Shown here: positions 6,487-37,780 of the stretch, one piece after another
Numbering within the stretch: the first letter of the stretch is position 1
How the letters are laid out: each line of letters begins with the position of its first letter
Source: a virus
Lineage: Duplodnaviria; Heunggongvirae; Uroviricota; Caudoviricetes
Length of the DNA stretch: 37,780 nt
IMG/VR virus record: IMGVR_UViG_2541047682_000004
Direction: 5' to 3' (one strand)
Notes under the pieces: model-generated
Databases searched by the model: none
What the model was told of the DNA's origin: nothing
The model's input: only the letters and a program-made list of their open reading frames with translations
Translations under genes and position numbers: made by a program

Positions 6487-6729
6487 ATGAAAAAATCAGA
6501 AGTATTAGGCTATTTTGGCGGAGTTGTTAAAACAGCCGCAGCTCTAGGAACGTCAAAAACCACAGTCAGCATGTGGGGGGAAGAGGTTCCGTGGAAATGG
6601 GCGTTGCTAATTCAGGCAGTCACTGCCGGGGCGCTCAAATATGAGTTACACATACCGACGGTTGTCATTCCCGGTTCTGATCATAATCCGCCTTCTAACC
6701 AAGGGGGGATTCATGAAAATCAAGCATGA
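6487..6729 (+). CDS. Cro-like HTH protein (YdaS-like)
   Basis: start at MKKSEV with GGAG RBS; HTH VLGYFGGVVKTAAALGTSKTTVSMW; overlaps the downstream YdaT-like gene as in Rac ydaS-ydaT. Confidence 0.7.
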   Translation: MKKSEVLGYFGGVVKTAAALGTSKTTVSMWGEEVPWKWALLIQAVTAGALKYELHIPTVVIPGSDHNPPSNQGGIHENQA

Positions 6730-7138: not shown

Positions 7139-7203
7139 CTGACAATAGCCATATCGAATCGCTTCCGGCAACTCGTGAGTAAAAAGATTCGGTATCAGAA
7201 GAG

Positions 7204-8280: not shown

Positions 8281-8320
8281 GTGTTAATTTCTGGTCATGA
8301 GGTAATTTTCAGGAGGGCTT

Positions 8321-8743
8321 GTGGCAAAAGTTTTTACACAAGAAGAGCGGGAAAAAATTAAAGGACAGGTTGTTGAACTCGTACGCCAGAGTGGGCGTGA
8401 GACGTTACGGCAACTGGAAGTCAAGACAGGTGCGACAAGATATCTGATGAGCGTTCTCGCAAGAGAGCTGGTTGCCAGCGGCGATGTATGCAACTCTGGT
8501 TACGGGTTATTCCCGTCTGAACAGGCGCGTAAGGACTGGCAAAATGCCAGTAAAAAGCTCTCAAGGGCAAAGCTGAAGAAACCATCTGCGGTTGATCCGG
8601 ACCTTATCTGGTCATTACCTGACGGAGAAATACGTCGCTACGACAGGCGTCAGAACATAATCTGTCGCGAGTGCCGGAAGAGTGAAGTTATGCAGCGCAT
8701 ATTGTCGTTTTATCAGGGTGATGTTCGGTATTTATTGAAGTGA
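8321..8743 (+). CDS. hypothetical protein (140 aa)
   Basis: GTG start with AGGAGG RBS 4 nt upstream; typical GC content. Confidence 0.5.
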   Translation: MAKVFTQEEREKIKGQVVELVRQSGRETLRQLEVKTGATRYLMSVLARELVASGDVCNSGYGLFPSEQARKDWQNASKKLSRAKLKKPSAVDPDLIWSLPDGEIRRYDRRQNIICRECRKSEVMQRILSFYQGDVRYLLK

Positions 8744-8874
8744 CGAGATTAAAGTGCATTAGTTCAGATGCAAATTGACATTTTGTGGCACAGGGTAGAG
8801 CTAGCGTGGTTGTCCGCTTTGTGCCAATAGCGGACATTGCTGGCTCATGGTATGTTAGTTTAAGGAGGCATGTT

Positions 8875-9897
8875 ATGCCCTGTATTTCGCTGTGGTATAA
8901 TAGTTGCGCAATTGATACAAGGGAGCGTTACATCGTGAAAATTGTTTTCGAGGTTAATGGAAAGAAAGTTCCACTAAAATCTTTAAAATACATAAGCAAA
9001 AAAGATCAACTCGAAGTAATGAAAAACTGGTTCTTTGAAAACTTTGAAGATCCGGCAAATGCTTGTCCGTATGAAAGTAGAGAAGGTGGCTATGCTTACA
9101 TATATGGCGGGCCGTATGATGCGAGCGAAGAACTACAATCCATCTTCGGTCAATATGTTAAATCTGAGTATATTGAGGAATTAGTAGATGAATTACAAAC
9201 ACAATGTTTTGACTGGTCTGGAAACTCAAATAATATAGATGATTGGTACGATGATGATATCTACGACGCTGTAACGTCTTCCGGTAATCCGTATTTAAAA
9301 TTCATTGATAATATCGATAAAATAAAAAAACTTGCAAAAGATAAAACTGAACAACAGCAAAAAAACCACTTGCTTAGTTTGCTCTACACGAATGTTATTA
9401 CAGCTTTGGAAACGCTTTATGTTGAGCTATTCATTAATTCTATAGAGAAAGATGATGTCTACATAGCCAATTGTATAGAAAAAGGTAAGACTGAATTTAA
9501 AGTAAGCAAAGATATTGCTGCGTTGCCTTTCAAGGGTGAACCCATCGAGAAAATTAGGGGAGAGCTAATCAGGTCAATCAAGGAACACTTGATCAGTGCA
9601 AGCTGGCATAGCACTAAAAAGGTAATCGACCGCTATGAAGCTACATTCGATATAAAAGTACAAAAAGACTGTCCGATAGAAGCTATTGAATTGGCAACCC
9701 TCAATCGAAATCACTTAGTGCATCGTGGTGGAAAGGATAAAGAAGGGAACCTCGTAGTGATTACAGACCAGGATCTTGAAACGCTGATTGAAAATGCATC
9801 GAACCTGGCAATTATGCTCTACAACAGTTTAAATGTAGCAACGAATAAAACCACCATTTTGCAACCAGATGACAAACCGTTCATTCATGAATTTTAA
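8875..9897 (+). CDS. hypothetical protein with C-terminal HEPN-like Rx4H motif (candidate RNase, accessory island gene A)
   Basis: ATG at 8875 with AGGAGG 6 nt upstream, in frame with ORF 8785..9897; AT-rich codon usage; C-terminal ..ATLNRNHLVHRGG.. (R-x4-H). Confidence 0.6.
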   Translation: MPCISLWYNSCAIDTRERYIVKIVFEVNGKKVPLKSLKYISKKDQLEVMKNWFFENFEDPANACPYESREGGYAYIYGGPYDASEELQSIFGQYVKSEYIEELVDELQTQCFDWSGNSNNIDDWYDDDIYDAVTSSGNPYLKFIDNIDKIKKLAKDKTEQQQKNHLLSLLYTNVITALETLYVELFINSIEKDDVYIANCIEKGKTEFKVSKDIAALPFKGEPIEKIRGELIRSIKEHLISASWHSTKKVIDRYEATFDIKVQKDCPIEAIELATLNRNHLVHRGGKDKEGNLVVITDQDLETLIENASNLAIMLYNSLNVATNKTTILQPDDKPFIHEF

Positions 9898-9912
9898 TAG
9901 CGCAGGTCATAC

Positions 9913-10914
9913 ATGGATATTCGCACACGAAAGACAAAATTTTTAGAGTCGTTAGATTCAACTGAAGTGATACGCAAAGCAGTAAGTCTCGCTATAGATT
10001 GCATTATTGATAATCATAATAGTAATGAAGATACCCCCTTAGTTATTACCAGCTATGATGATCTCTGTAGAATCCAGGTGCTAAATTATGTACAGGAGTT
10101 TTGCGAAGCTGCATTCCCTGATATGGATGAATATTACTTTAGTCCTAACATACTTCGCATCAACGGCAAGACTAGTGAAGAAGCTTGTATTAACTTAATT
10201 AAACTCTTAAGAAGTACAAAAGGCATGCTATTCTGGTCCGATGCCCCATCGTGGTTCGCTAGCCTCCCCGACGGATTATTCCATGTTGTTAACATTGATC
10301 AAAAAATCGTTACTCGCGGCCTTAATAAGAAAAACTCTAAGCCGACAATAATCAATAAAGATTACAGTGTAGATACACTACTATCAGAGCTATTTTTGAA
10401 TGGCGCACACATGGAGCAACCCAACGTACACAACGTTTCTGAGGGAAACATGAAGTTCTATGATGAATGCCATGCTGGATTAATCAGACCAATACCCGCT
10501 CCAATAGGCGCGTCATACGATGAAGAGATCACAATTAATTCTCCAGATTGGCAAAAGCTCGCGTGTGTAGCTTTACGCCGCTATCAGTCGAAGGAATGTC
10601 ATGACGGAATGCAATGGGATACAACCGATCATGGTTGGACTGATGTAATCGCGTATCCATTCGTCGAAGAAATACAATCAATGGATAATAGTGGTTATCG
10701 ACAATGTTTAGTTGGGCTGGTCACAATAAACAATTCAAATGCAAATTCTCCGTACCTATCTACCGTTTGGATACATCCATTTTATCGCAGGAGAGGGTTA
10801 TTAAGTAAGTTATGGCCAAAATTACAAGAGTTATATGGAAGTAACTTCGAAATTGAGCGACCTAATGAAAATATGAAAGCATTTCTGAAAAGTGCGAAAC
10901 ACGCAGATTACTAA
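9913..10914 (+). CDS. hypothetical protein with C-terminal GNAT-like acetyltransferase fold (accessory island gene B)
   Basis: 333 aa; starts 15 nt after gene A stop; C-terminal LVGLVTIN...STVWIHPFYRRRGLLSKLW resembles GNAT beta4/motif A; AT-rich. Confidence 0.55.
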   Translation: MDIRTRKTKFLESLDSTEVIRKAVSLAIDCIIDNHNSNEDTPLVITSYDDLCRIQVLNYVQEFCEAAFPDMDEYYFSPNILRINGKTSEEACINLIKLLRSTKGMLFWSDAPSWFASLPDGLFHVVNIDQKIVTRGLNKKNSKPTIINKDYSVDTLLSELFLNGAHMEQPNVHNVSEGNMKFYDECHAGLIRPIPAPIGASYDEEITINSPDWQKLACVALRRYQSKECHDGMQWDTTDHGWTDVIAYPFVEEIQSMDNSGYRQCLVGLVTINNSNANSPYLSTVWIHPFYRRRGLLSKLWPKLQELYGSNFEIERPNENMKAFLKSAKHADY

Positions 10915-11230
10915 TTTATGAATCAGTCTGTGGAGTTAGGGTTGGTGTCAACAAGTAGGGTAAGAGCCTCAACGTGATGCTATGCCGACCTGCTCCCTGA
11001 GAATTCACACAGAAGGCTGCTAGCAATGTCTGCAGATCGCTCAAAGCGGACTAGAAGGTTAGCTTGCGTCGGACTTGGCGTATTTAAAGAAGTGCTGGTG
11101 GTGACTGGTTGTTGTGTTCCATTTCTACAGAACAAAATCACAGAAACTATACCCAATAGTTATATTGAATCAATGATGAGACAGCCTCATATTTATCAGA
11201 ACTGGTGTACGTCCAATACAGGAGGTTGTC

Positions 11231-11320
11231 GTGCTGGTTCTCAAATGTGCGCTAGCTATTGCGGCTGTAATGGCAATTTATTGTCTTGCTGTTGTTCTTA
11301 TGGATCGCCTTTCTGATTGA
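11231..11320 (+). CDS. putative small hydrophobic peptide (29 aa, GTG start)
   Basis: AGGAGG at 11220-11225, 5-nt spacer, GTG at 11231; single predicted transmembrane helix (LVLKCALAIAAVMAIYCLAVVLM); overlaps Cys-rich ORF 11026..11316 in another frame. Confidence 0.25.
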   Translation: MLVLKCALAIAAVMAIYCLAVVLMDRLSD

Positions 11321-11339
11321 TTTTATATTGGCGAGGTGA

Positions 11340-11531
11340 CGGGAGTTAAGTAGAATTGCTGCGGGTGCTTGAGGCTATCTGCCTCAGGCATGAACACCAA
11401 AGGCAGATAGAGAAAAGCCCCAGTTAATATTACGCGTCCTGCAAGACGCTTAACATTAATCTGAGGCTCAATCTATGAACGGCAAATCTAGGTTAGCCTC
11501 TTACGTGCCGAAAGGCAAGGAGAAGCAGGCT
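11340..11531. promoter_or_regulatory. hok mRNA leader with stem-loops; expected location of the antisense sok-like RNA
   Basis: hairpin CTGAGGCTATCTGCCTCAG at about 11369-11390 and repeated TGAGGC before the hok start; by analogy with the hok/sok organisation. Confidence 0.4.
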
Positions 11532-11687
11532 ATGAAGCAGCAAAAGGCGATGTTAATCGCCCTGATCGTCATCTGTTTAACCGTCATAGTGACGGCACTG
11601 GTAACGAGGAAAGACCTCTGCGAGGTACGAATCCGAACCGGCCAGACGGAGGTCGCTGTCTTCACAGTTTACGAACCTGAGGAGTAA
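11532..11687 (+). CDS. hokD: Hok/Gef-family type I toxin (HokD/RelF-like)
   Basis: 51-aa product MKQQKAMLIALIVICLTVIVTALVTRKDLCEVRIRTGQTEVAVFTVYEPEE, near-identical to my recollection of E. coli HokD; in-frame upstream extension from 11475. Confidence 0.85.
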   Translation: MKQQKAMLIALIVICLTVIVTALVTRKDLCEVRIRTGQTEVAVFTVYEPEE

Positions 11688-11725
11688 GAGACCCGGCGAG
11701 GGAGAAATCCCTCGCCACCTCTGAT

Positions 11726-12133
11726 GTGTCAGGCATCCTCAACGCACCCGCACGTAACCCGCTTCGGCGGGTTTTGTTTTTTCCTGGCATTCTGGTTTAC
11801 AATTCGCACGCCAGCCTGAACAACTGGCACCTGCTGCGCCAGCAGAGACAACCGATGGCGCACGATACCAAATTACACAATTCTGATGATTCTGCCGTCT
11901 TTGCCAGCAGGCACGGGCGGCGTTCCCGCACTTTCAAATCTGACTGGTTCCAGCATCCCCCATGCACTGAAGAACAGGCCGAGTGGCTAATTCAGTGCTA
12001 CCGCAGACACGGATACGAGATTAAGAAAGCCCTCAGCCTCGATTATCGTCACTGGATAATCTCCGTCAGGCTTCCTTACTCCGAACGATCACCGCGTCCG
12101 TCCCGCACATTCCAGCAACGCATCTGGAGGTAA
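11726..12133 (+). CDS. hypothetical protein (start uncertain; alternative ATG at 11855)
   Basis: ORF only; no strong RBS at either start. Confidence 0.35.
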   Translation: MSGILNAPARNPLRRVLFFPGILVYNSHASLNNWHLLRQQRQPMAHDTKLHNSDDSAVFASRHGRRSRTFKSDWFQHPPCTEEQAEWLIQCYRRHGYEIKKALSLDYRHWIISVRLPYSERSPRPSRTFQQRIWR

Positions 12134-12134: not shown

Positions 12135-13181
12135 GTGCGAGTATTACTTCGACCTGTTCTGGTACCGGAACTCGGGCTGGTGATCGTTAAGCCGGGCCGT
12201 GAATCCATGCCGGTATTCCACAATACCCGGGTACTGGTGGAGCCGGAACCGAAAAGCATGCGTAATCTGCCGTCCGGGGTTGTTCCTGCCGTTCGCCAGC
12301 CGCTAGTGGAAGACAAAACATTGCTGCCGTTTTTCAGTAACGCACGGGTGATTCGTGCTGCTGGTGGTGCTGGTGCATTGTCTGACTGGCTGTTGCGCCA
12401 TATTAAATCCTGCCAGTGGCCACACGGCGATTATCATCACAGCGAAACCGTCATTCACCGTTATGGTACCGGCGCAATGGTGTTGTGCTGGCACTGCGAC
12501 AACCAGCTGCGTGACCAGACATCCGAATCACTCGAGCAACTTGCTCATCAAAACCTGTCAGCATGGATGATTGACGTCATACTCCATGCAATGAATGGCT
12601 CGCAGGAACGGGAATTATCGCTGGCTGAATTATCCTGGTGGGCGGTCCGCAATCAGGTGGCGGACGCGCTACCGGAAGCGGTATTACGTCGTTCGCTGGG
12701 GTTGCGTGCGGAAAAAATCCGCTCAATGTACCGTGAAAGCGACATCGTACCGGGAGAGCAGACCGCCACCAGCATACTGAAGCAGCGCACAAAAAATCTT
12801 GCGCCGCTGCCTCACGCCCACCAGCAAAACCCGCCACAGGAAGAGACGGTGGTCAGCATTGCCGTTGATCCTGAGTCTCCGGAATCTTTCATGAAACGAC
12901 CTAAACGTCGCCGCTGGGTTAACGAGAAATACACACGCTGGGTGAAGACACAGCCGTGTGCGTGTTGTGGTAAGCCAGCCGACGATCCCCATCACCTGAT
13001 TGGTCATGGTCAGGGCGGAATGGGGACAAAATCTCACGATATTTTCACGCTACCGCTGTGTCGGGAGCATCACAACGAGCTTCATGCGGATCCTCTGGCG
13101 TTCGAAGAAAAGCATGGTTCTCAGGTTGATTTAATTTTTCGTTTTCTTGATCACGCCTTTGCAACTGGCGTGCTTGGGTAA
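12135..13181 (+). CDS. nin-region protein with Cys/His-rich zinc-finger and HNH-like C-terminal motif (DUF968-like)
   Basis: GTG start with GGAGGT RBS; CQWPHGDYHH...CWHCDNQ and C-terminal CACCGK..HHLIGHGQGG..LCREHHNELH. Confidence 0.55.
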   Translation: MRVLLRPVLVPELGLVIVKPGRESMPVFHNTRVLVEPEPKSMRNLPSGVVPAVRQPLVEDKTLLPFFSNARVIRAAGGAGALSDWLLRHIKSCQWPHGDYHHSETVIHRYGTGAMVLCWHCDNQLRDQTSESLEQLAHQNLSAWMIDVILHAMNGSQERELSLAELSWWAVRNQVADALPEAVLRRSLGLRAEKIRSMYRESDIVPGEQTATSILKQRTKNLAPLPHAHQQNPPQEETVVSIAVDPESPESFMKRPKRRRWVNEKYTRWVKTQPCACCGKPADDPHHLIGHGQGGMGTKSHDIFTLPLCREHHNELHADPLAFEEKHGSQVDLIFRFLDHAFATGVLG

Positions 13182-13193
13182 AAGAGGTGACTG

Positions 13194-13568
13194 ATGCTCA
13201 TAGATTTGGTTTTACCTTACCCGCCGACGGTGAACACTTACTGGCGACGCCGTGGCAGCACATATTTTATCTCGGAGGAGGGAAAGCGTTATCGCCGGGC
13301 TGTGGCGCTTATTGTTCGCCAGCAGCGGCTGAAATTAAGCCTGTCCGGAAGGCTGGCGATAAAGGTGATTGCAGAGCCACCGGATAAGCGTCGTCGCGAC
13401 CTGGACAATATCCTGAAAGCACCGCTGGATGCGCTGACGCATGCGGGAGTGTTAATGGACGATGAGCAGTTTGATGAAATCAATATCGTTCGTGGTCAGC
13501 CAGTATCTGGTGGACGTATGGGGGTGAAGATTTACCCCATAATGCATGAAGAGCAGGTCAAAAAATGA
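13194..13568 (+). CDS. rusA: RusA-family Holliday junction resolvase
   Basis: 124 aa; LPYPPTVNTYWRRRG and DKRRRDLDNILKAPLDAL match RusA signature; AAGAGGTGA RBS. Confidence 0.85.
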   Translation: MLIDLVLPYPPTVNTYWRRRGSTYFISEEGKRYRRAVALIVRQQRLKLSLSGRLAIKVIAEPPDKRRRDLDNILKAPLDALTHAGVLMDDEQFDEINIVRGQPVSGGRMGVKIYPIMHEEQVKK

Positions 13569-14386
13569 AACTGGAAGATTTACCGAAATACTACTCCCCA
13601 AAATCCCCTGGCCTGACCGATGCATCGGCCTCAACGTCAAAAGATGCGCTGAGTATCACTGATGTGATGGCCGCGCAGGGCATGACACAGAATCGGGCTG
13701 AGATGGGGTTTTCTGCGTTCCTGGGGAAAATGGGCATCAGTATGAATGACAGGGCGCGGGCAACAGAATTACTGGCAGATTATGCACTCAGTCGGTGCGA
13801 TCGTGTGGCGGCGTTGAGAAAACTTCCGGCAGAAATAAAACCGGTAGTGATGCGCATTATGGCTTCGTATGCGTTTGAAGATTATGCCCGTAGCGCGGCG
13901 AGCAAAAAACAGTGCCCTTGCTGTCACGGAAAAAAATTTATTGAAAGCGAGGTTTTTACAAACAAGATCCAGTATCCGGATGGTAAGCCACCAGTGTGGG
14001 CAAAGTGCACAAAAGGCGTGTATCCGTCTTACTGGGAAGAATGGAAAAAAGTCAGGGAGGTGGTAAAAGTTGCCTGTCCGGAGTGTGGCGGAAAGGGTGA
14101 GGTTTCCACCGCCTGTAAGGATTGCCGTGGGCGTGGTGTCGCCATTCATCGTGAAGAGTCGGTAAAACGTGGTATGCCTGTTATCAGAGATTGCCAGCGT
14201 TGTGGTGGTCGTGGCTGTGAAAGGCTGCCATCAACGGAGGCATTTAATGCCATATGCAAAGTGACGAGTGCTATCACGCTTGATACGTGGAAAAAATCAG
14301 TGAAACGCTTTTACGATACGTTGGTGGTTCGGTTTGACATTGAAGAGGCATGGGCGGAGCGGCAGTTAAAGAGGGTAACGCGATAG
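13565..14386 (+). CDS. Q: late-gene antiterminator Q (lambda Q family, with extra CxxC repeats)
   Basis: N-terminal similarity to lambda Q (YSPKSP..., DVMAAQGM, ASYAFEDYARSAA, CPCCHGKK); ATGA overlap with rusA stop; immediately upstream of a lambda-like PR'/tR'. Confidence 0.8.
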   Translation: MKLEDLPKYYSPKSPGLTDASASTSKDALSITDVMAAQGMTQNRAEMGFSAFLGKMGISMNDRARATELLADYALSRCDRVAALRKLPAEIKPVVMRIMASYAFEDYARSAASKKQCPCCHGKKFIESEVFTNKIQYPDGKPPVWAKCTKGVYPSYWEEWKKVREVVKVACPECGGKGEVSTACKDCRGRGVAIHREESVKRGMPVIRDCQRCGGRGCERLPSTEAFNAICKVTSAITLDTWKKSVKRFYDTLVVRFDIEEAWAERQLKRVTR

Positions 14387-14391
14387 TGTTG

Positions 14392-14440
14392 TTGATTTTT
14401 CCCGAATCTGTGGTAAATTTGCTCTAACGATGGGCGTTTT
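14392..14440 (+). promoter_or_regulatory. late promoter PR' with qut-like region
   Basis: TTGATT -35 (14392-14397), TGGTAAATT extended -10, then GCTCTAACGATGGGCG resembling the lambda PR' start region. Confidence 0.65.
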
Positions 14441-14466
14441 ATGCCTGACGTTAGAAGATTTTTTAC

Positions 14467-14491
14467 ACCCCGCCGCCTGGCGGGTTTTTTA
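14467..14491 (+). terminator. tR'-like intrinsic terminator
   Basis: CCCGCC-GCCT-GGCGGG hairpin followed by TTTTTT. Confidence 0.75.
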
Positions 14492-14610
14492 TGACTGAAA
14501 TCGCGTCAGTACAGTAAACGCGCTGGTGGCGGTGAATACCTGTCTTTCAGCTTGCTGGCTTTTTCGACAAGAGTTATTGGTGTGTCACGTTAACCGGAAA
14601 AGGAAAAGAC

Positions 14611-14808
14611 ATGCTAAAACAGCAGGATATGACAGAAACCGCCAGAGTGGTGTTTAATGAATTAAGCGTTACCGACCCGGCGACAGTCGGGGAGATAGCG
14701 CAGAATACTTACCTTTCACGCGAACGCTGCCAGTTAATACTGACTCAGCTGGTTATGGCGGGTCTGGCAGACTATCAGTTCGGTTGTTACAGACGCCTTC
14801 CGCAGTGA
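14611..14808 (+). CDS. hypothetical small protein (65 aa, possible winged-helix)
   Basis: ATG with AAGGAAAAG RBS; followed by an intrinsic terminator. Confidence 0.5.
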   Translation: MLKQQDMTETARVVFNELSVTDPATVGEIAQNTYLSRERCQLILTQLVMAGLADYQFGCYRRLPQ

Positions 14809-14822
14809 AGGCTTTTTTATTT
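14788..14822 (+). terminator. intrinsic terminator
   Basis: GCCTTC-CGCAGT-GAAGGC hairpin followed by TTTTTTATTT; overlaps the stop of the 65-aa ORF. Confidence 0.6.
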
Positions 14823-14958
14823 GTGGTAAATGGGCGGCTGGTGGGTGTTAGGGGCACCCACCAGCCATCTGCTCATGCGTCCGGATCACAAGCAAACCTC
14901 AGGCCCACTGCTTTGCGCAAAAGCAGAATGAGCCTATCAGAGACAGGCTTAATGATCC

Positions 14959-16008
14959 ATGCTTAATACTGTAAAAATATCCAGTTGTGAGTTAATCAAC
15001 GCCGACTGCCTGGAATTTATCCGGTCGTTACCCGAAAATTCTGTTGACCTGATAGTCACGGACCCGCCGTACTTTAAAGTGAAGCCTGAGGGCTGGGATA
15101 ACCAGTGGAAGGGCGACGATGATTACCTGAAGTGGCTGGACCAGTGTCTGGCGCAGTTCTGGCGGGTGCTGAAACCTGCCGGAAGTCTTTACCTGTTCTG
15201 TGGTCATCGCCTGGCATCTGATATCGAAATCATGATGCGTGAACGCTTCAGTGTGCTGAACCATATTATCTGGGCGAAGCCGTCCGGACGCTGGAACGGA
15301 TGCAACAAGGAAAGCCTGCGGGCGTATTTCCCCGCCACAGAGCGCATTCTGTTCGCGGAACATTATCAGGGGCCGTATCGTCCGAAAGATGCCGGGTATG
15401 CGGCGAAGGGCAGTGCACTGAAACAGCATGTGATGGCCCCGCTGATTTCTTACTTTCGTGATGCGCGCGCGGCCCTGGGGATAACGGCAAAACAGATTGC
15501 AGATGCCACAGGAAAGAAAAACATGGTGTCGCACTGGTTCAGTGCCAGTCAGTGGCAGCTACCGAATGAAAGCGATTATCTGAAATTACAGGCGCTGTTT
15601 GCCCGGGTGGCAGAAGAGAAGCATCGGCGTGGTGAACTGGAAAAGCTCCACCACCAGCTGGTGGATACGTATACCTCACTGAACCGGCAGTATGCGGAGC
15701 TGCTGAGTGAATATAAACATCTGCGGCGGTATTTTGGCGTGACGGTGCAGGTGCCGTATACCGATGTGTGGACGCATAAACCGGTGCAGTTCTATCCCGG
15801 GAAACATCCGTGCGAAAAACCGGCAGAAATGCTGCAGCAGATAATCAGCGCAAGTAGCCGTCCTGGTGATCTGGTTGCGGATTTTTTCATGGGGTCGGGT
15901 TCAACGGTAAAAGCGGCGATGGCACTGGGGCGTCGTGCGATTGGTGTTGAGCTGGAGACCGGACGTTTTGAGCAGACAGTCAGGGAAGTTCAGGATTTAA
16001 TCGTTTGA
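14959..16008 (+). CDS. orphan DNA methyltransferase (amino-MTase, DPPY motif; N6-adenine or N4-cytosine)
   Basis: 349 aa; motif IV IVTDPPYF near N-terminus and motif I-like FMGSGST near C-terminus; no adjacent restriction endonuclease ORF. Confidence 0.85.
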   Translation: MLNTVKISSCELINADCLEFIRSLPENSVDLIVTDPPYFKVKPEGWDNQWKGDDDYLKWLDQCLAQFWRVLKPAGSLYLFCGHRLASDIEIMMRERFSVLNHIIWAKPSGRWNGCNKESLRAYFPATERILFAEHYQGPYRPKDAGYAAKGSALKQHVMAPLISYFRDARAALGITAKQIADATGKKNMVSHWFSASQWQLPNESDYLKLQALFARVAEEKHRRGELEKLHHQLVDTYTSLNRQYAELLSEYKHLRRYFGVTVQVPYTDVWTHKPVQFYPGKHPCEKPAEMLQQIISASSRPGDLVADFFMGSGSTVKAAMALGRRAIGVELETGRFEQTVREVQDLIV

Positions 16009-31939: not shown

Positions 31940-34493
31940 TCTTGTTATTGACCTGAGTCTGGATGCTGTCCGTTTCGATGAGCAGATGAGCCGGGTAAGG
32001 CGTCATTTTTCAGGTCTGGATACCGACGCCAGAAAAACCGCCAGTGCTGTTGAACAGGGCCTGAGCCGCCAGGCGCTGGCTGCACAAAAAGCCGGGATTT
32101 CCGTCGGGCAGTATAAAGCGGCCATGCGAACCCTGCCCGCACAGTTTACGGATATCGCCACGCAGCTTGCCGGTGGTCAGAATCCCTGGTTGATCCTGCT
32201 GCAACAGGGCGGTCAGGTGAAGGACTCCTTCGGCGGGATGATCCCCATGTTCAGGGGGCTTGCCGGTGCGATCACCCTGCCGATGGTCGGGGTCACCTCG
32301 CTGGCGGTGGCGACAGGTGCGCTGGCGTACGCCTGGTACCAGGGCGACGCCACGCTTTCAGAATTTAATAAAACGCTGGTCCTTTCCGGCAATCAGGCCG
32401 GACTGACTGCCGATCGTATGCTGACGCTCTCAAGAGCCGGGCAGGCAGCAGGGCTGACGTTTAACCAGGCGAGAGAGTCACTGGCAGCCCTGGTGAATGC
32501 CGGTGTGCGTGGTGGTGAACAGTTTGATGCCATCAACCAGAGTGTCGCGCGTTTTGCGTCTGCATCCGGTGTGGAGGTGGATAAAGTCGCTGAAGCCTTC
32601 GGGAAGCTGACCACTGACCCGACGTCGGGACTGATGGCGATGGCGCGCCAGTTCCGTAACGTGACGGCAGAGCAGATTGCGTATGTTGCACAGCTGCAGC
32701 GTTCCGGAGACGAGGCCGGGGCATTGCAGGCGGCGAACGATATCGCCACGAAAGGCTTTGATGAGCAGACCCGTCGCCTGAAAGAAAACATGGGAACACT
32801 GGAGACCTGGGCGGATAAAACAGGGAAGGCATTCAAATCGATGTGGGATGCCATTCTGGATATCGGTCGTCCGGAATCCTCAGCGGATATGCTCGCCAGT
32901 GCGCAGAAGGCATTTGATGAGGCGGATAAAAAATGGCAGTGGTACCAGAGCCGGAGCCAGCGCCGGGGAAAGACCTCCTCTTTTCGTGCGAACCTTCAGG
33001 GGGCATGGGATGACCGGGAAAATGCCCGTCTGGGTCTGGCAGCGGCCACGCTGCAGTCGGATATGGAAAAAGCCGGTGAACTGGCGGCAAGGGACAGGGC
33101 TGAGCGTGAGTCGTCACAGCTGAAGTATACCGGAGAGGCGCAGAAGGCGTATGAGCGCCTGCAGACGCCGCTGGATAAATATACCGCCCGTCAGAAAGAG
33201 CTGAATAAGGCCCTGAAAGACGGAAAAATCCTGCAGGCGGATTACAACACGCTGATGGCGTCGGCAAAAAAGGATTATGAATCGACGCTGAAAAAGCCGT
33301 CAGGTGTGAAGGTGTCTGCCGGTGAGCGCCAGGAAGACCGGGCGCATGCAGCCCTGCTGGCGCTTGAAACCGAGCTCAGGACGCTGGAAAAACACAGCGG
33401 TGTGAATGAGAAAATCAGCCAGCAGCGCCGGGATTTATGGGAAGCGGAAAGTCAGTATGTGGTCCTGAAAGAGGCCGCCACGAAACGGCAGTTATCTGAG
33501 CAGGAAAAATCCCTGCTGGCTCATGAGAAAGAGACGCTGGAGTACAAACGCCAGCTGGCTGAGCTGGGAGACAAGATTGAACACCAGAAGCGGCTGAATG
33601 AGCTGGCACAGCAGGCGGCGCGGTTTGAACAGCAGCAAAGCGCGAAGCAGGCGGCAATCAGCGCAAAAGCCCGCGGCCTCACCGACCGTCAGGCGCAGCG
33701 GGAGTCGGAAGAGCAGCGCCTTCGTGAGGTGTACGGTGATAATCCGGCTGCGCTGGCGAAGGCCACATCGGCACTGAAGAACACCTGGTCTGCGGAGGAG
33801 CAGCTTCGTGGAAGCTGGATGGCCGGGATGAAGTCCGGCTGGGGAGAGTGGGCGGAAAGTGCGACGGACAGTTTTTCGCAGGTTAAAAGTGTGGCCACGC
33901 AGACCTTTGACGGTATTGCACAGAATATGGCGGCGATGCTGACCGGCAGCGAACAGAACTGGCGGGGATTCACCCGTTCCGTGCTGTCCATGATGACAGA
34001 AATTCTGCTTAAGCAGGCAATGGTGGGGATTGTCGGGAGTATCGGCAGCGCCATTGGCGGGGCTGTTGGTGGCGGCGCATCCGCGTCAGGCGGTACAGCC
34101 ATTCAGGCCGCCGCGGCGAAATTCCATTTTGCAACCGGAGGATTTACGGGAACCGGCGGCAAATATGAGCCAGCGGGGATTGTTCACCGTGGTGAATTTG
34201 TCTTCACAAAGGAGGCAACCAGCCGGATTGGCGTGGGGAATCTCTATCGGCTGATGCGCGGCTATGCCACCGGTGGTTATGTCGGTACACCGGGCAGTCT
34301 GGCTGACAGCCGGTCGCAGGCGTCCGGGACGTTTGAGCAGAATAACCATGTGGTGATTAACAACGACGGCACGAACGGGCAGATAGGTCCGGCTGCTCTG
34401 AAGGCGGTGTATGACATGGCCCGCAAGGGTGCCCGTGATGAAATTCAGACACAGATGCGTGATGGTGGACTGTTCTCCGGAGGTGGACGATGA
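31920..34493 (+). CDS. H: tail tape measure protein H
   Basis: 857 aa; near-colinear with lambda H (N-terminal PVGDLVIDLSLDAVRFDEQM, C-terminal GLFSGGGR). Confidence 0.9.
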   Translation: MSQPVGDLVIDLSLDAVRFDEQMSRVRRHFSGLDTDARKTASAVEQGLSRQALAAQKAGISVGQYKAAMRTLPAQFTDIATQLAGGQNPWLILLQQGGQVKDSFGGMIPMFRGLAGAITLPMVGVTSLAVATGALAYAWYQGDATLSEFNKTLVLSGNQAGLTADRMLTLSRAGQAAGLTFNQARESLAALVNAGVRGGEQFDAINQSVARFASASGVEVDKVAEAFGKLTTDPTSGLMAMARQFRNVTAEQIAYVAQLQRSGDEAGALQAANDIATKGFDEQTRRLKENMGTLETWADKTGKAFKSMWDAILDIGRPESSADMLASAQKAFDEADKKWQWYQSRSQRRGKTSSFRANLQGAWDDRENARLGLAAATLQSDMEKAGELAARDRAERESSQLKYTGEAQKAYERLQTPLDKYTARQKELNKALKDGKILQADYNTLMASAKKDYESTLKKPSGVKVSAGERQEDRAHAALLALETELRTLEKHSGVNEKISQQRRDLWEAESQYVVLKEAATKRQLSEQEKSLLAHEKETLEYKRQLAELGDKIEHQKRLNELAQQAARFEQQQSAKQAAISAKARGLTDRQAQRESEEQRLREVYGDNPAALAKATSALKNTWSAEEQLRGSWMAGMKSGWGEWAESATDSFSQVKSVATQTFDGIAQNMAAMLTGSEQNWRGFTRSVLSMMTEILLKQAMVGIVGSIGSAIGGAVGGGASASGGTAIQAAAAKFHFATGGFTGTGGKYEPAGIVHRGEFVFTKEATSRIGVGNLYRLMRGYATGGYVGTPGSLADSRSQASGTFEQNNHVVINNDGTNGQIGPAALKAVYDMARKGARDEIQTQMRDGGLFSGGGR

Positions 34494-34819
34494 AAACCTT
34501 CCGCTGGAAAGTGAAACCCGGGATGGATGTGACATCGGCTCCTTCCGTCAGGGAGGTGCGCTTTGGTGATGGCTATTCCCAGCGTGCGCCTGCCGGGCTG
34601 AACGCTGACCTGAAAACGTACAGCGTGACGCTGTCTGTCTCCCGTGAGGAGGCCACGGCGCTGGAGTCGTTTCTGGCTGAGCACGGGGGCTGGAAGGCCT
34701 TTCTGTGGACGCCGCCTTATGGTTACAGGCAGATAAAGGTGACCTGCGCAAAATGGTCGTCGCAGGTCAGTATGTTGCGTGTTGGGTTCAGCGCAGAGTT
34801 TAAACAGGTGGTGAACTGA
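34490..34819 (+). CDS. M: minor tail protein M
   Basis: 109 aa; lambda M-like. Confidence 0.85.
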   Translation: MKTFRWKVKPGMDVTSAPSVREVRFGDGYSQRAPAGLNADLKTYSVTLSVSREEATALESFLAEHGGWKAFLWTPPYGYRQIKVTCAKWSSQVSMLRVGFSAEFKQVVN

Positions 34820-35517
34820 TGCAGGATATCCGGCAGGAAACACTGAATGAATGCACCCGTGCGGAGCAGTCGGCCAGCGTGGTGCTCTGGGAAATCGATC
34901 TGACAGAGGTCGGTGGAGAACGTTATTTTTTCTGTAATGAGCAGAACGAAAAAGGTGAGCCGGTCACCTGGCAGGGGAGGCAGTATCAGGCGTATCCCAT
35001 TCAGGGGAGCGGTTTTGAACTGAATGGCAAAGGCACCAGTACGCGGCCCACGCTGGCAGTCTCTAACCTGTACGGCATGGTCACCGGTATGGTGGAAGAT
35101 ATGCAGAGTCTGGTCGGCGGAACGGTGGTCCGGCGTAAGGTTTACGCCCGTTTTCTGGATGCGGTGAACTTCGTCAACGGAAACAGAGACGCCGATCCGG
35201 AGCAGGAGGTGATCAGCCGCTGGCGCATCGAGCAGTGCAGCGAACTGAGCGCGGTGAGTGCCTCCTTTGTACTGTCCACGCCGACGGAAACGGATGGCGC
35301 TGTTTTTCCGGGGCGTATCATGCTGGCCAACACCTGCACCTGGACCTATCGCGGTGATGAGTGCGGTTATCACGGTCCGGCAGTCGCGGATGAATATGAC
35401 CAGCCGACGTCCGATATCACGAAGGATAAATGCAGCAAATGCCTGAGCGGCTGTAAGTTTCGCAATAACGTCGGCAACTTTGGCGGCTTCCTTTCCATTA
35501 ACAAACTTTCGCAGTAA
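34819..35517 (+). CDS. L: minor tail protein L
   Basis: 232 aa; nearly identical to my recollection of lambda L (MQDIRQETLNECTRAEQSASVVLWEIDL...). Confidence 0.9.
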   Translation: MQDIRQETLNECTRAEQSASVVLWEIDLTEVGGERYFFCNEQNEKGEPVTWQGRQYQAYPIQGSGFELNGKGTSTRPTLAVSNLYGMVTGMVEDMQSLVGGTVVRRKVYARFLDAVNFVNGNRDADPEQEVISRWRIEQCSELSAVSASFVLSTPTETDGAVFPGRIMLANTCTWTYRGDECGYHGPAVADEYDQPTSDITKDKCSKCLSGCKFRNNVGNFGGFLSINKLSQ

Positions 35518-35521
35518 TCCC

Positions 35522-36265
35522 ATGACAGAGACAGAATCAGCGATTCTGGCGCACGCCCGGCGATGTGCGCCAGCGGAGTCGTGCGGCTTCGTGGTAAGCA
35601 CGCCGGAGGGGGAAAGATATTTCCCCTGCGTGAATATCTCCGGTGAGCCGGAGGCGTATTTCCGGATGGCTCCGGAGGACTGGCTGCAGGCAGAGATGCA
35701 GGGTGAGATTGTGGCGCTGGTCCACAGCCACCCCGGTGGTCTGCCCTGGCTGAGTGAGGCTGACCGGCGGCTGCAGGTGCAGAGCGATTTGCCGTGGTGG
35801 CTGGTCTGCCGGGGGGCGATTCACAAGTTCCGCTGTGTGCCGCATCTCACCGGGCGGCGCTTTGAGTACGGGGTGACAGACTGTTACACACTGTTCCGGG
35901 ATGCTTACCATCTGGCGGGGATTGAGATGCCGGATTTTCATCGCGGGGATGACTGGTGGCGTCACGGTCAGAATCTCTATCTTGACAATATGGAGGCTAC
36001 TGGTTTTTACCGTGTCGCACTGACAGAGGCGCAGCCGGGCGATGTGCTGCTGTGCTGTTTTGGTTCATCGGTGCCGAATCACGCCGCCATTTACTGCGGC
36101 GACGGTGAGCTGCTGCACCATATTCCTGAACAACTGAGTAAACGAGAGAGGTATACCGACAAATGGCAGCGACGCACACACTCCCTCTGGCGTCACCGGG
36201 AATGGCACGCATCTGCCTTTACGGGGATTTGCAACGATTTGGCCGCCGCATCGACCTTCGTGTGA
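35522..36265 (+). CDS. K: tail assembly protein K (JAB/MPN plus NlpC/P60-like)
   Basis: start at MTETESAIL after the L stop; HSHPGG (JAMM-like) motif; lambda K-like. Confidence 0.85.
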   Translation: MTETESAILAHARRCAPAESCGFVVSTPEGERYFPCVNISGEPEAYFRMAPEDWLQAEMQGEIVALVHSHPGGLPWLSEADRRLQVQSDLPWWLVCRGAIHKFRCVPHLTGRRFEYGVTDCYTLFRDAYHLAGIEMPDFHRGDDWWRHGQNLYLDNMEATGFYRVALTEAQPGDVLLCCFGSSVPNHAAIYCGDGELLHHIPEQLSKRERYTDKWQRRTHSLWRHREWHASAFTGICNDLAAASTFV

Positions 36266-36834
36266 AAACGGGGGCTGAAGCCATCCGCGCACTGGCCACA
36301 CAGCTCCCGGTGTTTCGTCAGAAACTGAGCGACGGCTGGTATCAGGTACGGATTGCCGGGCGGGACGTCAGCACGTCCGGGTTAACGGCGCAGTTACATG
36401 AGACTCTGCCTGATGGCGCTGTGATTCATATTGTTCCCAGAGTCGCCGGGGCCAAGTCAGGTGGCGTATTCCAGATTGTCCTGGGGGCTGCCGCCATTGC
36501 CGGATCATTCTTTACCGCCGGAGCCACCCTTGCAGCATGGGGGGCAGCCATTGGGGCCGGTGGTATGACCGGCATCCTGTTTTCTCTCGGTGCCAGTATG
36601 GTGCTCGGTGGTGTGGCGCAGATGCTGGCACCGAAAGCCAGAACTCCCCGTACACAGACAACGGATAACGGCAAACAGAACACCTATTTCTCCTCACTGG
36701 ATAACATGGTTGCCCAGGGCAATGTCCTGCCTGTTCTGTACGGTGAAATGCGCGTGGGGTCACGTGTGGCATCTCAGGAGATCAGCACGGCAGATGAAGG
36801 GGATGGTGGTCAGGTTGTGGTAATTGGGCGGTAA
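36163..36834 (+). CDS. I: tail assembly protein I
   Basis: 223 aa; ubiquitin-like N-terminus and Gly/Ala-rich hydrophobic C-terminus as in lambda I; overlaps K. Confidence 0.85.
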   Translation: MAATHTLPLASPGMARICLYGDLQRFGRRIDLRVKTGAEAIRALATQLPVFRQKLSDGWYQVRIAGRDVSTSGLTAQLHETLPDGAVIHIVPRVAGAKSGGVFQIVLGAAAIAGSFFTAGATLAAWGAAIGAGGMTGILFSLGASMVLGGVAQMLAPKARTPRTQTTDNGKQNTYFSSLDNMVAQGNVLPVLYGEMRVGSRVASQEISTADEGDGGQVVVIGR

Positions 36835-36907
36835 TATTATTTTACTCATGTTCTAACTAATTTAATATTTATATCGAACACTGATAATTATTCTATTGGT
36901 TAGCTAT

Positions 36908-37246
36908 ATGAACAAAACGATTTTATTCTGCACGATTATTGCCTTAACAGGATGTAAATCTTTGGATTACGTAAAATCCGGAAAACCTGTAATGGAAGGT
37001 AATTCATTAAAAAATATTGATGAATTGTCAGGCTGCATATCCAGACAATGGGCTGGTAATGGAACACCTATAACATCCCTTCCTATTGAGAATGGGGTAA
37101 GCCTTTTAGTTCCACAGGCTATGGGGGGATATGATGTTGTGCTTGATATCAAAAAAGCAGGAAATGGCAGTAGTTTTACTCTTTATGAACGTGTACCAGC
37201 ATTAACGCCAAAAATTTTTGCTGATAGTGTTAATGCATGTAAATAA
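36908..37246 (+). CDS. lipoprotein encoded by an AT-rich insertion between tail genes I and J
   Basis: ATG at 36908; signal peptide with lipobox MNKTILFCTIIALTG|C; about 96-aa mature part; AT-rich unlike flanking tail genes; followed by an intrinsic terminator. Confidence 0.6.
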   Translation: MNKTILFCTIIALTGCKSLDYVKSGKPVMEGNSLKNIDELSGCISRQWAGNGTPITSLPIENGVSLLVPQAMGGYDVVLDIKKAGNGSSFTLYERVPALTPKIFADSVNACK

Positions 37247-37270
37247 TAGTTAATCCTGTCGTAACTCATG

Positions 37271-37298
37271 AGCCGCCTTTTGGGCGGCTTTGTTGTTT
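37271..37298 (+). terminator. intrinsic terminator after the lipoprotein gene
   Basis: AGCCGCC-TTTTG-GGCGGCT hairpin followed by TTGTTGTTT. Confidence 0.7.
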
Positions 37299-37312
37299 AT
37301 GGAGTGTGAGGA

Positions 37313-37780
37313 ATGGGTAAAGGAAGCAGTAAGGGGCATACCCCGCGCGAAGCGAGGGACAACCTGAAGTCCACGCAGCTGCTGAGTGTGATCGATGCCA
37401 TCAGCGAAGGGCCGGTTGAAGGTCCGGTGGACGGATTAAAAAGCGTGCTGCTGAACAGTACGCCGGTGCTGGACAGTGAGGGGAATACCAATATATCCGG
37501 TGTCACGGTGGTGTTCCGGGCAGGTGAGCAGGAGCAGACACCGCCGGAGGGATTTGAATCCTCCGGCTCCGAGACGGTGCTGGGTACGGAAGTGAAATAT
37601 GACACGCCGATCACCCGGACCATCACGTCGGCAAACATCGACCGTCTGCGCTTTACCTTCGGTGTGCAGGCACTGGTGGAAACCACCTCAAAGGGGGACA
37701 GGAATCCGTCGGAAGTCCGCCTGCTGGTTCAGATCCAGCGTAACGGTGGCTGGGTGACGGAAAAAGACATCACCATTAAG
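37313..37780 (+). CDS. J: tail tip / host-specificity protein J (5' portion; continues beyond the window)
   Basis: MGKGSSKGHTPREARDNLKSTQLLSVIDAISEGPVEGPVDGLKSVLLNST... near-identical to the lambda J N-terminus; open to the window end. Confidence 0.9.
   Translation, partial: MGKGSSKGHTPREARDNLKSTQLLSVIDAISEGPVEGPVDGLKSVLLNSTPVLDSEGNTNISGVTVVFRAGEQEQTPPEGFESSGSETVLGTEVKYDTPITRTITSANIDRLRFTFGVQALVETTSKGDRNPSEVRLLVQIQRNGGWVTEKDITIK

What the first reader, a model, noticed from the sequence alone, without database searches (positions are those of the whole stretch)
36835..37312. Lipoprotein gene inserted between otherwise lambda-like tail genes I and J
The tail genes H-M-L-K-I-J are nearly identical to lambda in the parts I can compare from memory, and lambda has no gene between I and J. 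Here a 450-bp AT-rich insertion encodes a lipoprotein (lipobox LTG|C) followed by its own terminator. A small outer-membrane-directed lipoprotein beside the receptor-binding gene is the classic layout of receptor-masking superinfection-exclusion factors (Cor of phi80/HK022/N15, Llp of T5) or of virulence morons such as Bor and Lom.
Basis: partly seen in the sequence, partly recalled or inferred. Interest (0 to 1): 0.5.

Follow-up and report, generated by a model that had tools for sequence, protein, structure and literature searches.

The report
Uncharacterised lipoprotein moron between tail genes
A lambda-like E. coli prophage carries an extra, foreign-looking gene between tail genes I and J that encodes a small outer-membrane lipoprotein of a widespread but unstudied phage family; it is unrelated to the known receptor-blocking lipoproteins, and its function, possibly blocking entry of other phages, is untested.

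Summary
Relative to lambda, 451 nt (36831-37281, 33-39% GC against about 58%) replace 33 nt of the I-J spacer. They carry one conserved ORF (36908-37246) for a 112-aa lipoprotein: lipobox LTG|C, Lys at +2, two further invariant cysteines.

The gene is real. dN/dS is 0.07-0.31, and 337 of 5426 complete E. coli genomes have it. Homologues at 50-60% identity occur in Klebsiella, Enterobacter, Citrobacter, Kluyvera and Jejubacter.

It is a mobile accessory gene. The same gene sits at three tail-operon junctions (I|J, K|I, chaperone|tape measure). Distant relatives lie in other phage modules, a satellite-like element and an island.

It belongs to phrog_914 (unknown function, no Pfam family). It is not Cor, Llp, Bor or mEp Lpp by sequence, and its predicted fold differs from the published Llp/Cor fold (alpha+beta, nearest Flpp3).

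The receptor-masking reading is weakened. Near-identical alleles accompany at least four J receptor-binding domains, and the commonest of these occurs in about 50 phage records without the gene. No consensus promoter was found. The "own terminator" is the hairpin lambda already has.

Best guess, at moderate confidence: an envelope-acting exclusion factor not tied to its own receptor. This is an ordinary kind of feature from an uncharacterised family.

The parts
36163..36834 (+). Tail assembly gene I (223 aa), left flank of the insertion
   Evidence: ORF list. About 97% nt identity to lambda I up to 36830. Annotated 'tail assembly protein' in UTI89.
36831..37281 (+). Segment absent from lambda: 451 nt replacing 33 nt of the lambda I-J spacer
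   Evidence: blastn break points against lambda. Junction alignment. GC 0.33-0.39 against about 0.58 in the flanks.
36835..36907 (+). AT-rich 73-nt leader. No consensus sigma-70 promoter, only a weak -10-like GATAAT at 36883-36888 read by eye, and a weak Shine-Dalgarno
   Evidence: Sequence. Promoter scan found nothing on the + strand. The Klebsiella and Enterobacter copies also lack a consensus promoter.
36908..37246 (+). Lipoprotein gene (112 aa precursor, 97 aa mature), family phrog_914
   Evidence: ORF. phrog_914 E 7e-33 over its full length. Homologues in several genera. dN/dS 0.07-0.31. AF2 model pLDDT 83.7.
36908..36955 (+). Signal peptide with lipobox L-T-G-C (codons 13-16 at 36944-36955). 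Cys16 is the lipidated residue and Lys17 is at +2
   Evidence: Translation. C16 is invariant in 59 diverse members. No Asp at +2 in 56 members with a lipobox.
37270..37299 (+). Terminator-like hairpin (9 bp, 6 G-C) plus T-rich tail, homologous to the hairpin in lambda's own I-J spacer
   Evidence: Scan. Folding energy -19.1 kcal/mol, z -3.4. Alignment with lambda and the Lpp-less L043.
37313..37780 (+). 5' end of tail tip / host specificity gene J, cut by the window end; right flank
   Evidence: Sequence. 96% identity to lambda J from 37282. Annotated gpJ in UTI89.

Best explanation
The segment is a horizontally acquired accessory ('moron') cassette in the late tail operon of a lambda-like prophage.

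Product (inferred from sequence). A small Sec/Lsp-processed lipoprotein. [quoted passage not shown] It is a compact alpha+beta domain probably stapled by a Cys43-Cys111 disulfide. Because it is exported, it cannot be a virion part.

Expression (inferred). It lies inside the Q-antiterminated late transcript, so it is at least co-expressed with the tail genes during lytic growth. Expression from the repressed prophage is possible but unproven.

Most likely function (inferred, not shown). It acts on the cell envelope to stop other siphophages at or after adsorption. It would do this by binding, from the periplasmic side, a conserved envelope component or the incoming tail-tip/tape-measure machinery. 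It would not mask the particular receptor recognised by the neighbouring J allele. Made late, the same activity would also protect progeny from being wasted on the dying cell.

Confidence. That it is a real, mobile, exported lipoprotein moron of family phrog_914: about 0.95. That its role is envelope-level phage exclusion: about 0.4.
For: Anatomy. The insertion is defined against lambda and has deviant GC. It has a lipobox, Lys at +2 and no Asp at +2 anywhere in the family. Three cysteines are invariant across 59 members that share only 23% mean column identity. The AF2 model is confident. Selection is purifying.

Mobility and accessory status.
- The same gene (48-59% aa identity) lies at I|J in E. 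coli, at K|I in Klebsiella-type prophages and phage Fraca, and at chaperone|tape measure in HK97-like Enterobacter prophages.
- Distant phrog_914 members lie on the opposite strand in a PolA-phage replication module, at the end of a capsid-encoding satellite-like element, and in an integrase island.
- It is present in only 349 of about 12,500 lambda-like K-I-J clusters in complete E. coli genomes and in none of 110 sequenced lambda-like phage records.

Analogy.
- The chaperone|tape-measure slot is where the HK97 gp15 moron sits. gp15 is a proven exclusion protein that acts on the incoming tail rather than on the receptor (PMC3594210).
- Unrelated lipoproteins encoded in the structural cluster of mEpimmI phages exclude OmpA- or LamB-dependent phages by experiment (PMC11893012).
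- Llp works from the periplasmic face of FhuA (bioRxiv 10.64898/2026.03.26.714494).

Fast sequence divergence over a conserved fold fits an arms-race protein.
Against: - There is no experimental datum for any family member. All are annotated hypothetical, lipoprotein or phage protein, and no paper was found.
- There is no sequence or fold relationship to any known exclusion protein, and no PADLOC hit.
- No consensus promoter lies upstream in three independent contexts, so lysogen expression is unproven. The E. coli copy also has a weak Shine-Dalgarno.
- The nearest solved fold, Flpp3, is a Francisella virulence-associated lipoprotein and not a phage-defence protein.
- The seven Lpp-carrying strains listed hold 2-5 lambda-like tail clusters each. 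This gives no sign of broad exclusion of lambda-like phages, though it is weak evidence because the order of acquisition is unknown.
Confidence: 0.4

Rival explanations
1. Self-receptor masking in the manner of Cor or Llp. The lipoprotein would bind the outer-membrane protein that this phage's own J uses and inactivate it. That would exclude the same and related phages and stop progeny adsorbing to debris.
For: It is a small lipoprotein predicted to go to the outer membrane, encoded in the tail operon next to J. Llp, Cor and mEp Lpp010/Lpp021 show that this strategy is common. Like Llp, it has a disulfide tying the C-terminus to the body of the protein.
Against: - Lipoprotein alleles at 98% identity or more occur with at least four J C-terminal domains, at 93-100%, 66%, 46% and 17% identity to the UTI89 type.
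- The commonest J C-terminal type is 95% or more identical in 52 phage records, of which at most the two distant tblastn hits carry any homologue of the gene.
- Homologues at about 50% identity serve phages whose J is 3100-3400 aa with CBM domains, and there they lie 1-6 kb further from J.
- Fraca has a homologue plus its own Cor.
- It is not homologous to Cor, Llp or mEp Lpp and has a different fold.
Confidence: 0.12
2. A lysogenic-conversion fitness or virulence factor for the host, like Bor/Iss or Lom. As an outer-membrane lipoprotein it would improve serum resistance, envelope robustness or host interaction, with no role in phage-phage conflict.
For: - Exact copies are in ExPEC/APEC ST95-type strains: UTI89, S88, IHE3034, APEC O1 and NU14.
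- The same prophage carries a Lom/Ail gene after J.
- The best structural neighbour, Flpp3, is a Francisella virulence determinant, and BamC-N is also a neighbour.
- Morons with such roles are well known (PMC3594210).
Against: - There is no homology to Bor: no Pfam hit, and only a signal-peptide match to a Bor sequence recalled from memory.
- The ST95 distribution can be explained by vertical inheritance of one prophage.
- Family members also occur in non-pathogen contexts, in a satellite-like element and in a PolA phage.
- No consensus promoter for lysogen expression was found.
Confidence: 0.25
3. A helper for the phage's own lytic cycle, made with the late genes. It could be a periplasmic inhibitor or immunity protein against the C40/NlpC-P60 peptidase domain of tail protein K, or a modulator of lysis or of tail-tip interaction with the envelope.
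For: - The close subfamily is always inside a lambda/HK97-type tail operon in the same orientation.
- In Klebsiella-type prophages and Fraca it lies directly after K, a Prok-JAB + NLPC_P60 protein.
- The lack of a consensus promoter suggests mainly late co-transcription.
- From general knowledge: periplasmic lipoproteins serve as immunity proteins for NlpC/P60 effectors in type VI secretion.
Against: - Most lambda-like phages with near-identical K, I and J lack the gene and are viable.
- Adjacency to K is not conserved, since the gene also sits at I|J and T|H.
- Distant members lie outside tail modules.
- No fold match to known immunity proteins or lysis proteins appeared among the best matches.
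Confidence: 0.1
4. A selfish or neutral passenger: a gene that hitch-hikes at permissive hairpin-bearing junctions of tail operons and brings no benefit to phage or host.
For: It inserts at intergenic hairpins that exist without it. It is present in a minority of otherwise similar prophages.
Against: The ORF is intact and under purifying selection across genera. The cysteines and core motifs are strictly conserved. It recurs independently at three junctions.
Confidence: 0.05

Closest known systems
Cor (phi80, N15, HK022, T1; phrog_1119) and T5 Llp (PDB 8a60_B)
   Same: A small phage-encoded lipoprotein predicted to reach the periplasmic leaflet of the outer membrane. It has one disulfide involving the C-terminus and is encoded in or next to the tail/receptor-binding gene cluster.
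   Different: - No sequence relationship.
- The mature protein is 97 aa with a 5-strand sheet and two helices. Llp/Cor is about 60 aa and beta-rich.
- It lies upstream of J, or at K|I or T|H, rather than just downstream of J or next to pb5.
- It does not co-vary with the receptor-binding domain, and a distant homologue coexists with Cor in Fraca.
Lpp021 and Lpp010 of mEpimmI phages (phrog_4281, phrog_12984; PMC11893012)
   Same: Lipoproteins encoded within the structural gene cluster of temperate coliphages with lambda-like tail tips. They show by experiment that such genes exclude phages (OmpA- or LamB-dependent).
   Different: They are 72-82 aa, lie downstream of J on the opposite strand, and resemble this family only in the signal peptide.
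HK97 gp15 moron (YebO-like; PMC3594210)
   Same: An AT-rich moron inside the tail operon. The Enterobacter homologues of this lipoprotein occupy the same chaperone|tape-measure slot. gp15 excludes phages without blocking the receptor and depends on the incoming tail, which is the mode proposed here.
   Different: gp15 is a small inner-membrane protein and not a lipoprotein. There is no homology: no Pfam hit for any of 59 members.
Lambda Bor / Iss
   Same: A prophage-encoded outer-membrane lipoprotein of about 100 aa, common in ExPEC strains.
   Different: No Pfam Bor hit. It sits in a different genome position, the tail operon rather than the lysis region. No serum-resistance data exist.
Flpp3 / DUF3568 (Francisella; PDB 6pny, 9nlt_B) and the BamC N-terminal domain
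   Different: Only 6-10% identity and no Pfam match. Similar scores go to many unrelated helix-grip proteins (KA1, Bet v 1, DUF302), so this is fold resemblance only.

Membership tests
phrog_914 (PHROGs v4, unknown function) | Full-length match to the family HMM | tested here: met
   E 7.3e-33, residues 1-112 on profile positions 1-118 of 118. The Fraca homologue and the distant members P0143, P0144 and P0146 hit the same family.
Bacterial lipoprotein sorted to the outer membrane (Lsp/Lgt/Lol) | Short basic-hydrophobic signal peptide ending in a lipobox [LVI][ASTVI][GAS]C | tested here: met
   MNKTILFCTIIALTG|C. The Cys is invariant in 59 members.
Bacterial lipoprotein sorted to the outer membrane (Lsp/Lgt/Lol) | No Asp at +2 (the Lol-avoidance signal of Enterobacteriaceae) | tested here: met
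   Lys at +2 here. No Asp at +2 in 56 family members with a lipobox. Actual localisation was not tested.
Moron (Juhala/Hendrix sense) | Extra DNA between genes that are adjacent in close relatives | tested here: met
   451 nt replace 33 nt of lambda's I-J spacer. It is absent from 110 lambda-like phage records.
Moron (Juhala/Hendrix sense) | Base composition unlike the neighbours | tested here: met
   GC 0.33-0.39 against 0.56-0.60. The homologous copies are also below their flanks.
Moron (Juhala/Hendrix sense) | Own promoter | tested here: inconclusive
   No + strand sigma-70 consensus site upstream in the window, in Klebsiella L003 or in Enterobacter L007. There are only weak -10-like hexamers read by eye. 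No transcript data are available.
Moron (Juhala/Hendrix sense) | Own terminator | tested here: inconclusive
   A stable hairpin with a T-run follows the gene in every tail-embedded copy. However, a homologous hairpin is present at the I-J spacer of lambda and L043, which lack the gene.
Moron (Juhala/Hendrix sense) | Expressed from the repressed prophage | not testable with these tools
   Needs RNA-seq, 5'-RACE or reporter fusions in a lysogen.
Cor superinfection exclusion (phrog_1119) | Match to the Cor family profile | tested here: not met
   No phrog_1119 hit even at E <= 10. The Fraca Cor hits it at 6.8e-34. The A2 profile aligns only to the Cor signal peptide.
Cor superinfection exclusion (phrog_1119) | Gene immediately downstream of J, and inactivation of FhuA | tested here: not met
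   The gene lies upstream of J, or at K|I or T|H. The FhuA phenotype is not testable here.
T5 Llp (lytic conversion lipoprotein) | Sequence or fold similarity to Llp (about 60-aa beta-rich fold) | tested here: not met
mEpimmI Lpp types A and C (phrog_4281 / phrog_12984) | Sequence similarity of the mature protein | tested here: not met
   Only signal-peptide alignment, 6-8 bits. They fall in different PHROGs.
Bor / Iss | Match to the Pfam Bor family | tested here: not met
   No Pfam family at E <= 10. None for 59 members.
DUF3568 / Flpp3 | Pfam DUF3568 match, as opposed to fold resemblance alone | tested here: not met

The most novel reading that the evidence does not exclude
phrog_914 would be a new and widespread class of phage- and satellite-borne anti-phage lipoproteins with a Flpp3/BamC-like helix-grip fold. 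They would act from the periplasmic face of the outer membrane, independently of which receptor the incoming phage uses. For example, they might intercept the ejected tail-tip or tape-measure proteins, or a conserved envelope factor needed for DNA passage. That would explain why one allele serves prophages with unrelated J receptor-binding domains.
Probability: 0.15. Interest if true: 0.6.

Novelty: new member of a known kind. Interest (0 to 1): 0.35.

Why it matters
Small envelope proteins encoded by prophage morons shape which phages can infect clinical E. coli, Klebsiella and Enterobacter. That matters for phage therapy and for prophage-driven strain fitness.

This family has no Pfam entry and no characterised member. 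Even so, it is in about 6% of complete E. coli genomes, including the reference ExPEC strains UTI89, S88, IHE3034 and APEC O1. The exact protein has been seen on at least 1000 contigs.

If it excludes phages without regard to the receptor, it would add a mechanism beside Cor/Llp and HK97 gp15. If it does not, it is one more moron of unknown role.

The test is cheap: clone the gene and plate a phage panel.

Tried and rejected
Searches that found nothing or only generic matches:
- Pfam and NCBIfam gave no family. The only NCBIfam line was a VirB7 signal-peptide match at E 0.08, below cutoff.
- PADLOC gave nothing for 59 members.
- PDB sequence searches with the single protein and with the profile gave only signal-peptide or chance matches.
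- BFVD gave one convincing but uncharacterised match, from Pseudomonas phage phiAH14a.
- The afdb50 library was not available.
- A locus search with the diverse alignment failed for lack of a conserved stretch, so the close alignment was used instead.
- Literature searches for the RefSeq accession, the PHROG id and the N-terminal peptide found nothing.

Ideas considered and dropped:
- Tai tail-assembly-interference systems (PMC11364771). In phi80 these are orf63/orf64, outside the tail cluster by section title, and nothing links them to an exported lipoprotein.
- A structural tail component. This was rejected because a Sec/Lsp signal peptide exports the protein from the cytoplasm, where tails assemble.
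- A spurious ORF in AT-rich DNA. This was rejected on conservation and dN/dS.

The promoter scans were negative in three contexts, so I do not claim a promoter.

Full report
**Observation**

The window from 34390 to 36830 is 95.2% identical to lambda 13000-15440, which covers genes M, L, K and I. The stretch 37282-37780 is 96.0% identical to lambda 15474-15972, the start of J. Between these, 451 nt of the window replace 33 nt of lambda's I-J spacer. Divergence begins at the stop codon of I. GC content drops to 0.33-0.39 in the insert, against 0.56-0.60 on both sides.

The insert holds one sizeable + strand ORF, from ATG 36908 to the stop at 37246. It encodes 112 aa beginning MNKTILFCTIIALTG|CKS, which is a signal peptide, a canonical lipobox and Lys at +2. 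A 9-bp hairpin with six G-C pairs and a T-rich tail follows at 37270-37299. It folds at -19.1 kcal/mol, z = -3.4 against shuffles. J starts at 37313.

**The gene is real and common**

- The 478-nt segment is 95-100% identical in 337 of 5426 complete E. coli genomes, with 349 places in all. These include UTI89, S88, IHE3034, APEC O1, NU14 and ATCC 11775. It is annotated 'hypothetical protein' (WP_001332187.1) between 'tail assembly protein' and gpJ.
- Lambda-like K-I-J clusters occur at about 12,500 places in 4448 genomes, so only a few percent carry the insert.
- None of 110 lambda-like phage records that match the flanks contains it.
- The exact protein is seen on at least 1000 contigs, always unnamed or called lipoprotein or phage protein.
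- Homologues at 48-62% identity occur in Klebsiella, Enterobacter, Citrobacter, Kluyvera and Jejubacter.
- Pairwise dN/dS is 0.07-0.31 wherever dS can be computed.

**The wider family**

An exhaustive profile search found 125 clusters at 50% identity with E <= 1e-3. Nearly all are 105-125 aa.

Across 59 diverse members, mean column identity is only 23%. The lipobox Cys16, Cys43 and Cys111 are invariant, and P27, W48 and G63 are nearly so. This is the pattern of an exported, disulfide-bonded domain whose surface evolves quickly.

No member matches any Pfam or PADLOC model. The window protein, the Fraca homologue and three distant members all match phrog_914, which has no known function.

**Structure**

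AlphaFold2 with the 12-sequence alignment gives mean pLDDT 83.7 and pTM 0.76. The order of elements is short helix, strand, long helix, four strands, C-terminal helix. That makes a five-stranded sheet covered by two helices, and each helix carries one of the conserved cysteines.

In the viral structure set, the one convincing match is an uncharacterised 93-aa protein of Pseudomonas phage phiAH14a (E 1.4e-5, 25% identity).

**Genomic context: one gene, several junctions**

- E. coli type. In all IMG/VR loci of this type and in UTI89, the order is I | Lpp | J.
- Klebsiella type. In these prophages (L003-L006, L070, L078, L079) and in phage Fraca (31% identity), the gene lies between K and I.
- Enterobacter/Citrobacter type. 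In HK97-like prophages (L007-L009, L071-L076), it lies between the tail chaperone T and the tape measure. That is the slot of the HK97 gp15 moron (PMC3594210).
- Distant members. One lies on the opposite strand in the replication module of a PolA-type phage (L083). One lies at the end of a small element with primase, capsid, portal and terminase genes (L085). One lies in an integrase-bearing island (L081).

The gene is therefore a mobile accessory gene, not part of a conserved tail pathway. Because it is exported, it cannot be a virion component.

**The terminator and the promoter**

Every tail-embedded copy is followed by a hairpin, a T-run and then the Shine-Dalgarno and start codon of the next tail gene. 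However, lambda and an Lpp-less cluster in L043 have a homologous hairpin at the same place before J, for example lambda ACCGCCTGCGGGCGGTTTTGTCATTTATGGAG. The hairpin is thus a resident feature of the junction, or a scar left there, and not something the insert brought with it.

The consensus scan found no + strand sigma-70 promoter upstream of the gene in the window, in Klebsiella L003 or in Enterobacter L007. By eye there is only a weak -10-like GATAAT at 36883-36888.

The E. coli copy also has a poor Shine-Dalgarno, whereas the other copies have AGGAG or GGAGG.

Transcription with the late operon follows from the gene's position. Expression in the lysogen is not shown.

**Test of the receptor-masking idea**

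- The UTI89-type J is about 97% lambda-like up to residue 800. Its last 170 residues are only 46% identical to lambda's LamB-binding end.
- That C-terminal type is 95% or more identical in 52 phage records, including VT1-Sakai and long-tailed Stx2a phages. Of these, at most the two distant tblastn hits carry any homologue of the gene.
- Among 26 Lpp-bearing loci with a full-length J, lipoprotein alleles at 98% identity or more accompany J C-termini that are 93-100%, 66%, 46% and 17% identical to the UTI89 type.
- The Klebsiella homologues serve phages whose J is 3100-3400 aa and carries CBM domains.
- Fraca carries its own cor gene downstream of J in addition to the homologue.

The gene is therefore neither a fixed partner of one receptor-binding domain nor consistently placed beside it.

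**Comparison with known exclusion lipoproteins**

- Cor. Cor is phrog_1119. The Fraca Cor hits that model at 6.8e-34, and the window protein does not hit it at all.
- T5 Llp. It is in the PDB as 8a60_B. The family profile aligns only to its signal peptide (E 1.1).
- Fold. Llp and Cor share a beta-rich fold of about 60 aa with an N-to-C disulfide (bioRxiv 10.64898/2026.03.26.714494). The domain predicted here is a 97-aa alpha+beta domain.
- mEpimmI Lpp021 and Lpp010. By experiment these exclude OmpA- and LamB-dependent phages and are encoded in the structural cluster (PMC11893012). They lie downstream of J on the other strand, belong to other PHROGs, and resemble this family only in the signal peptide.
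- Bor. There is no Pfam Bor hit.

These results reject membership in each of those families. They do not reject a similar way of working.

**Most likely mechanism and rivals**

Shown:
- The segment is an AT-rich inserted cassette.
- It encodes a conserved lipoprotein precursor.
- The gene is mobile among tail-operon junctions and other mobile-element contexts.

Inferred from established rules of lipoprotein biogenesis:
- The protein is lipidated at Cys16.
- It is sorted by Lol to the outer membrane, because no member has Asp at +2.
- It faces the periplasm and forms a disulfide.

Inferred by analogy: it interferes with phage entry at the envelope. I favour a target that does not depend on the receptor-binding domain of the neighbouring J, such as a conserved envelope component or the incoming tail-tip/tape-measure proteins. 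HK97 gp15 shows that a moron in the same slot can act on the incoming tail rather than on the receptor. I put this at about 0.4.

Rivals:
- A Bor/Lom-like host-fitness factor: 0.25.
- Classic self-receptor masking: 0.12.
- A late lytic-cycle helper, such as an inhibitor of the C40 peptidase K next to which it sits in Klebsiella-type phages: 0.1.
- A neutral passenger: 0.05.

**Verdict**

The finding is real and correctly described. Its interpretation is partly supported. It is an accessory lipoprotein gene of a familiar kind, a moron in a tail operon, but from an uncharacterised family (phrog_914) that has no Pfam entry and no literature found.

It is moderately interesting. It is common in clinically important Enterobacteriaceae, easy to test, and possibly a receptor-independent exclusion factor. 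Nothing in the evidence makes it extraordinary.

Noticed in passing
L080 (lambda NC_001416) about 2462-2495, i.e. lambda about 15461-15494; compare window 37270-37299: Lambda's own I-J spacer holds a G+C-rich hairpin with a T-run, homologous to the hairpin that follows the lipoprotein gene. Similar hairpins precede the next tail gene at the K|I and T|H junctions of other phages. These junction hairpins may mark sites where morons insert or are lost.
   Followed up: partly
window 36163-36740 (gene I): The window's I allele is about 97% lambda-like at the nucleotide level. UTI89 and all other Lpp-bearing loci examined have an I only 74-82% identical in protein where it aligns as one piece. All are identical again over the last 95 nt or so of I and into the insert. 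This implies a recombination break point inside I. No complete E. coli genome matches 35500-37780 better than 96.8% over its full length.
   Followed up: partly
L069 3060-7910: In this prophage, the K|I junction carries about 4 kb of accessory genes. By eye these are a ribbon-helix-helix-like protein, Bro/KilA-N/ANT-like antirepressor-type proteins and an HTH regulator. They are followed by the phrog_914 lipoprotein and then a second, unrelated 149-aa lipoprotein (phrog_3152, unknown function). L070 has a KilA-N-like ORF in front of its copy.
   Followed up: partly
L087 (mEp021 MH706966) 45958-46524: In phage mEp021, the same I|J junction is occupied by a putative HNH endonuclease gene. The junction therefore accepts other cargo.
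   Followed up: no
L002 (phage Fraca LR597645) 5725-5994 and 11579-11812: Fraca has a 90-aa ORF without a signal peptide directly upstream of its phrog_914 homologue. It also has a bona fide cor gene downstream of J.
   Followed up: partly
proteins P0091 (1047 aa) and P0115 (782 aa): Two long proteins match the lipoprotein profile in 5-6 separate stretches. This suggests that the domain, or a repeat resembling it, also occurs in tandem in large proteins.
   Followed up: no
L001 (UTI89) 15431-15955: The receptor-binding end of this prophage's J is 97-98% identical to that of VT1-Sakai, many long-tailed Stx2a-converting phages and 'PPompW' prophages. It is only 46% identical to lambda's LamB-binding end. 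The receptor for this J type was not identified here.
   Followed up: partly
L043 (IMGVR_UViG_2695420744_000007) 1-12040: This 14-kb locus shows three successive lambda-like tail-tip clusters (L-K-I-J', H-M-L-K-I-Lpp-J', H-M-L-K-I-J') with truncated J genes. Only the middle one carries the lipoprotein. It could be tandem remnants or an assembly artefact.
   Followed up: no
window 36890-36907 compared with L003 5985-6000, L007 5985-6000 and L078 6985-7000: The E. coli copy has almost no Shine-Dalgarno (ttggttagctatATG). The Klebsiella and Enterobacter copies have AAGGGA, GGAGG or AGGAG at the usual distance. Translation efficiency may therefore differ between lineages.
   Followed up: no
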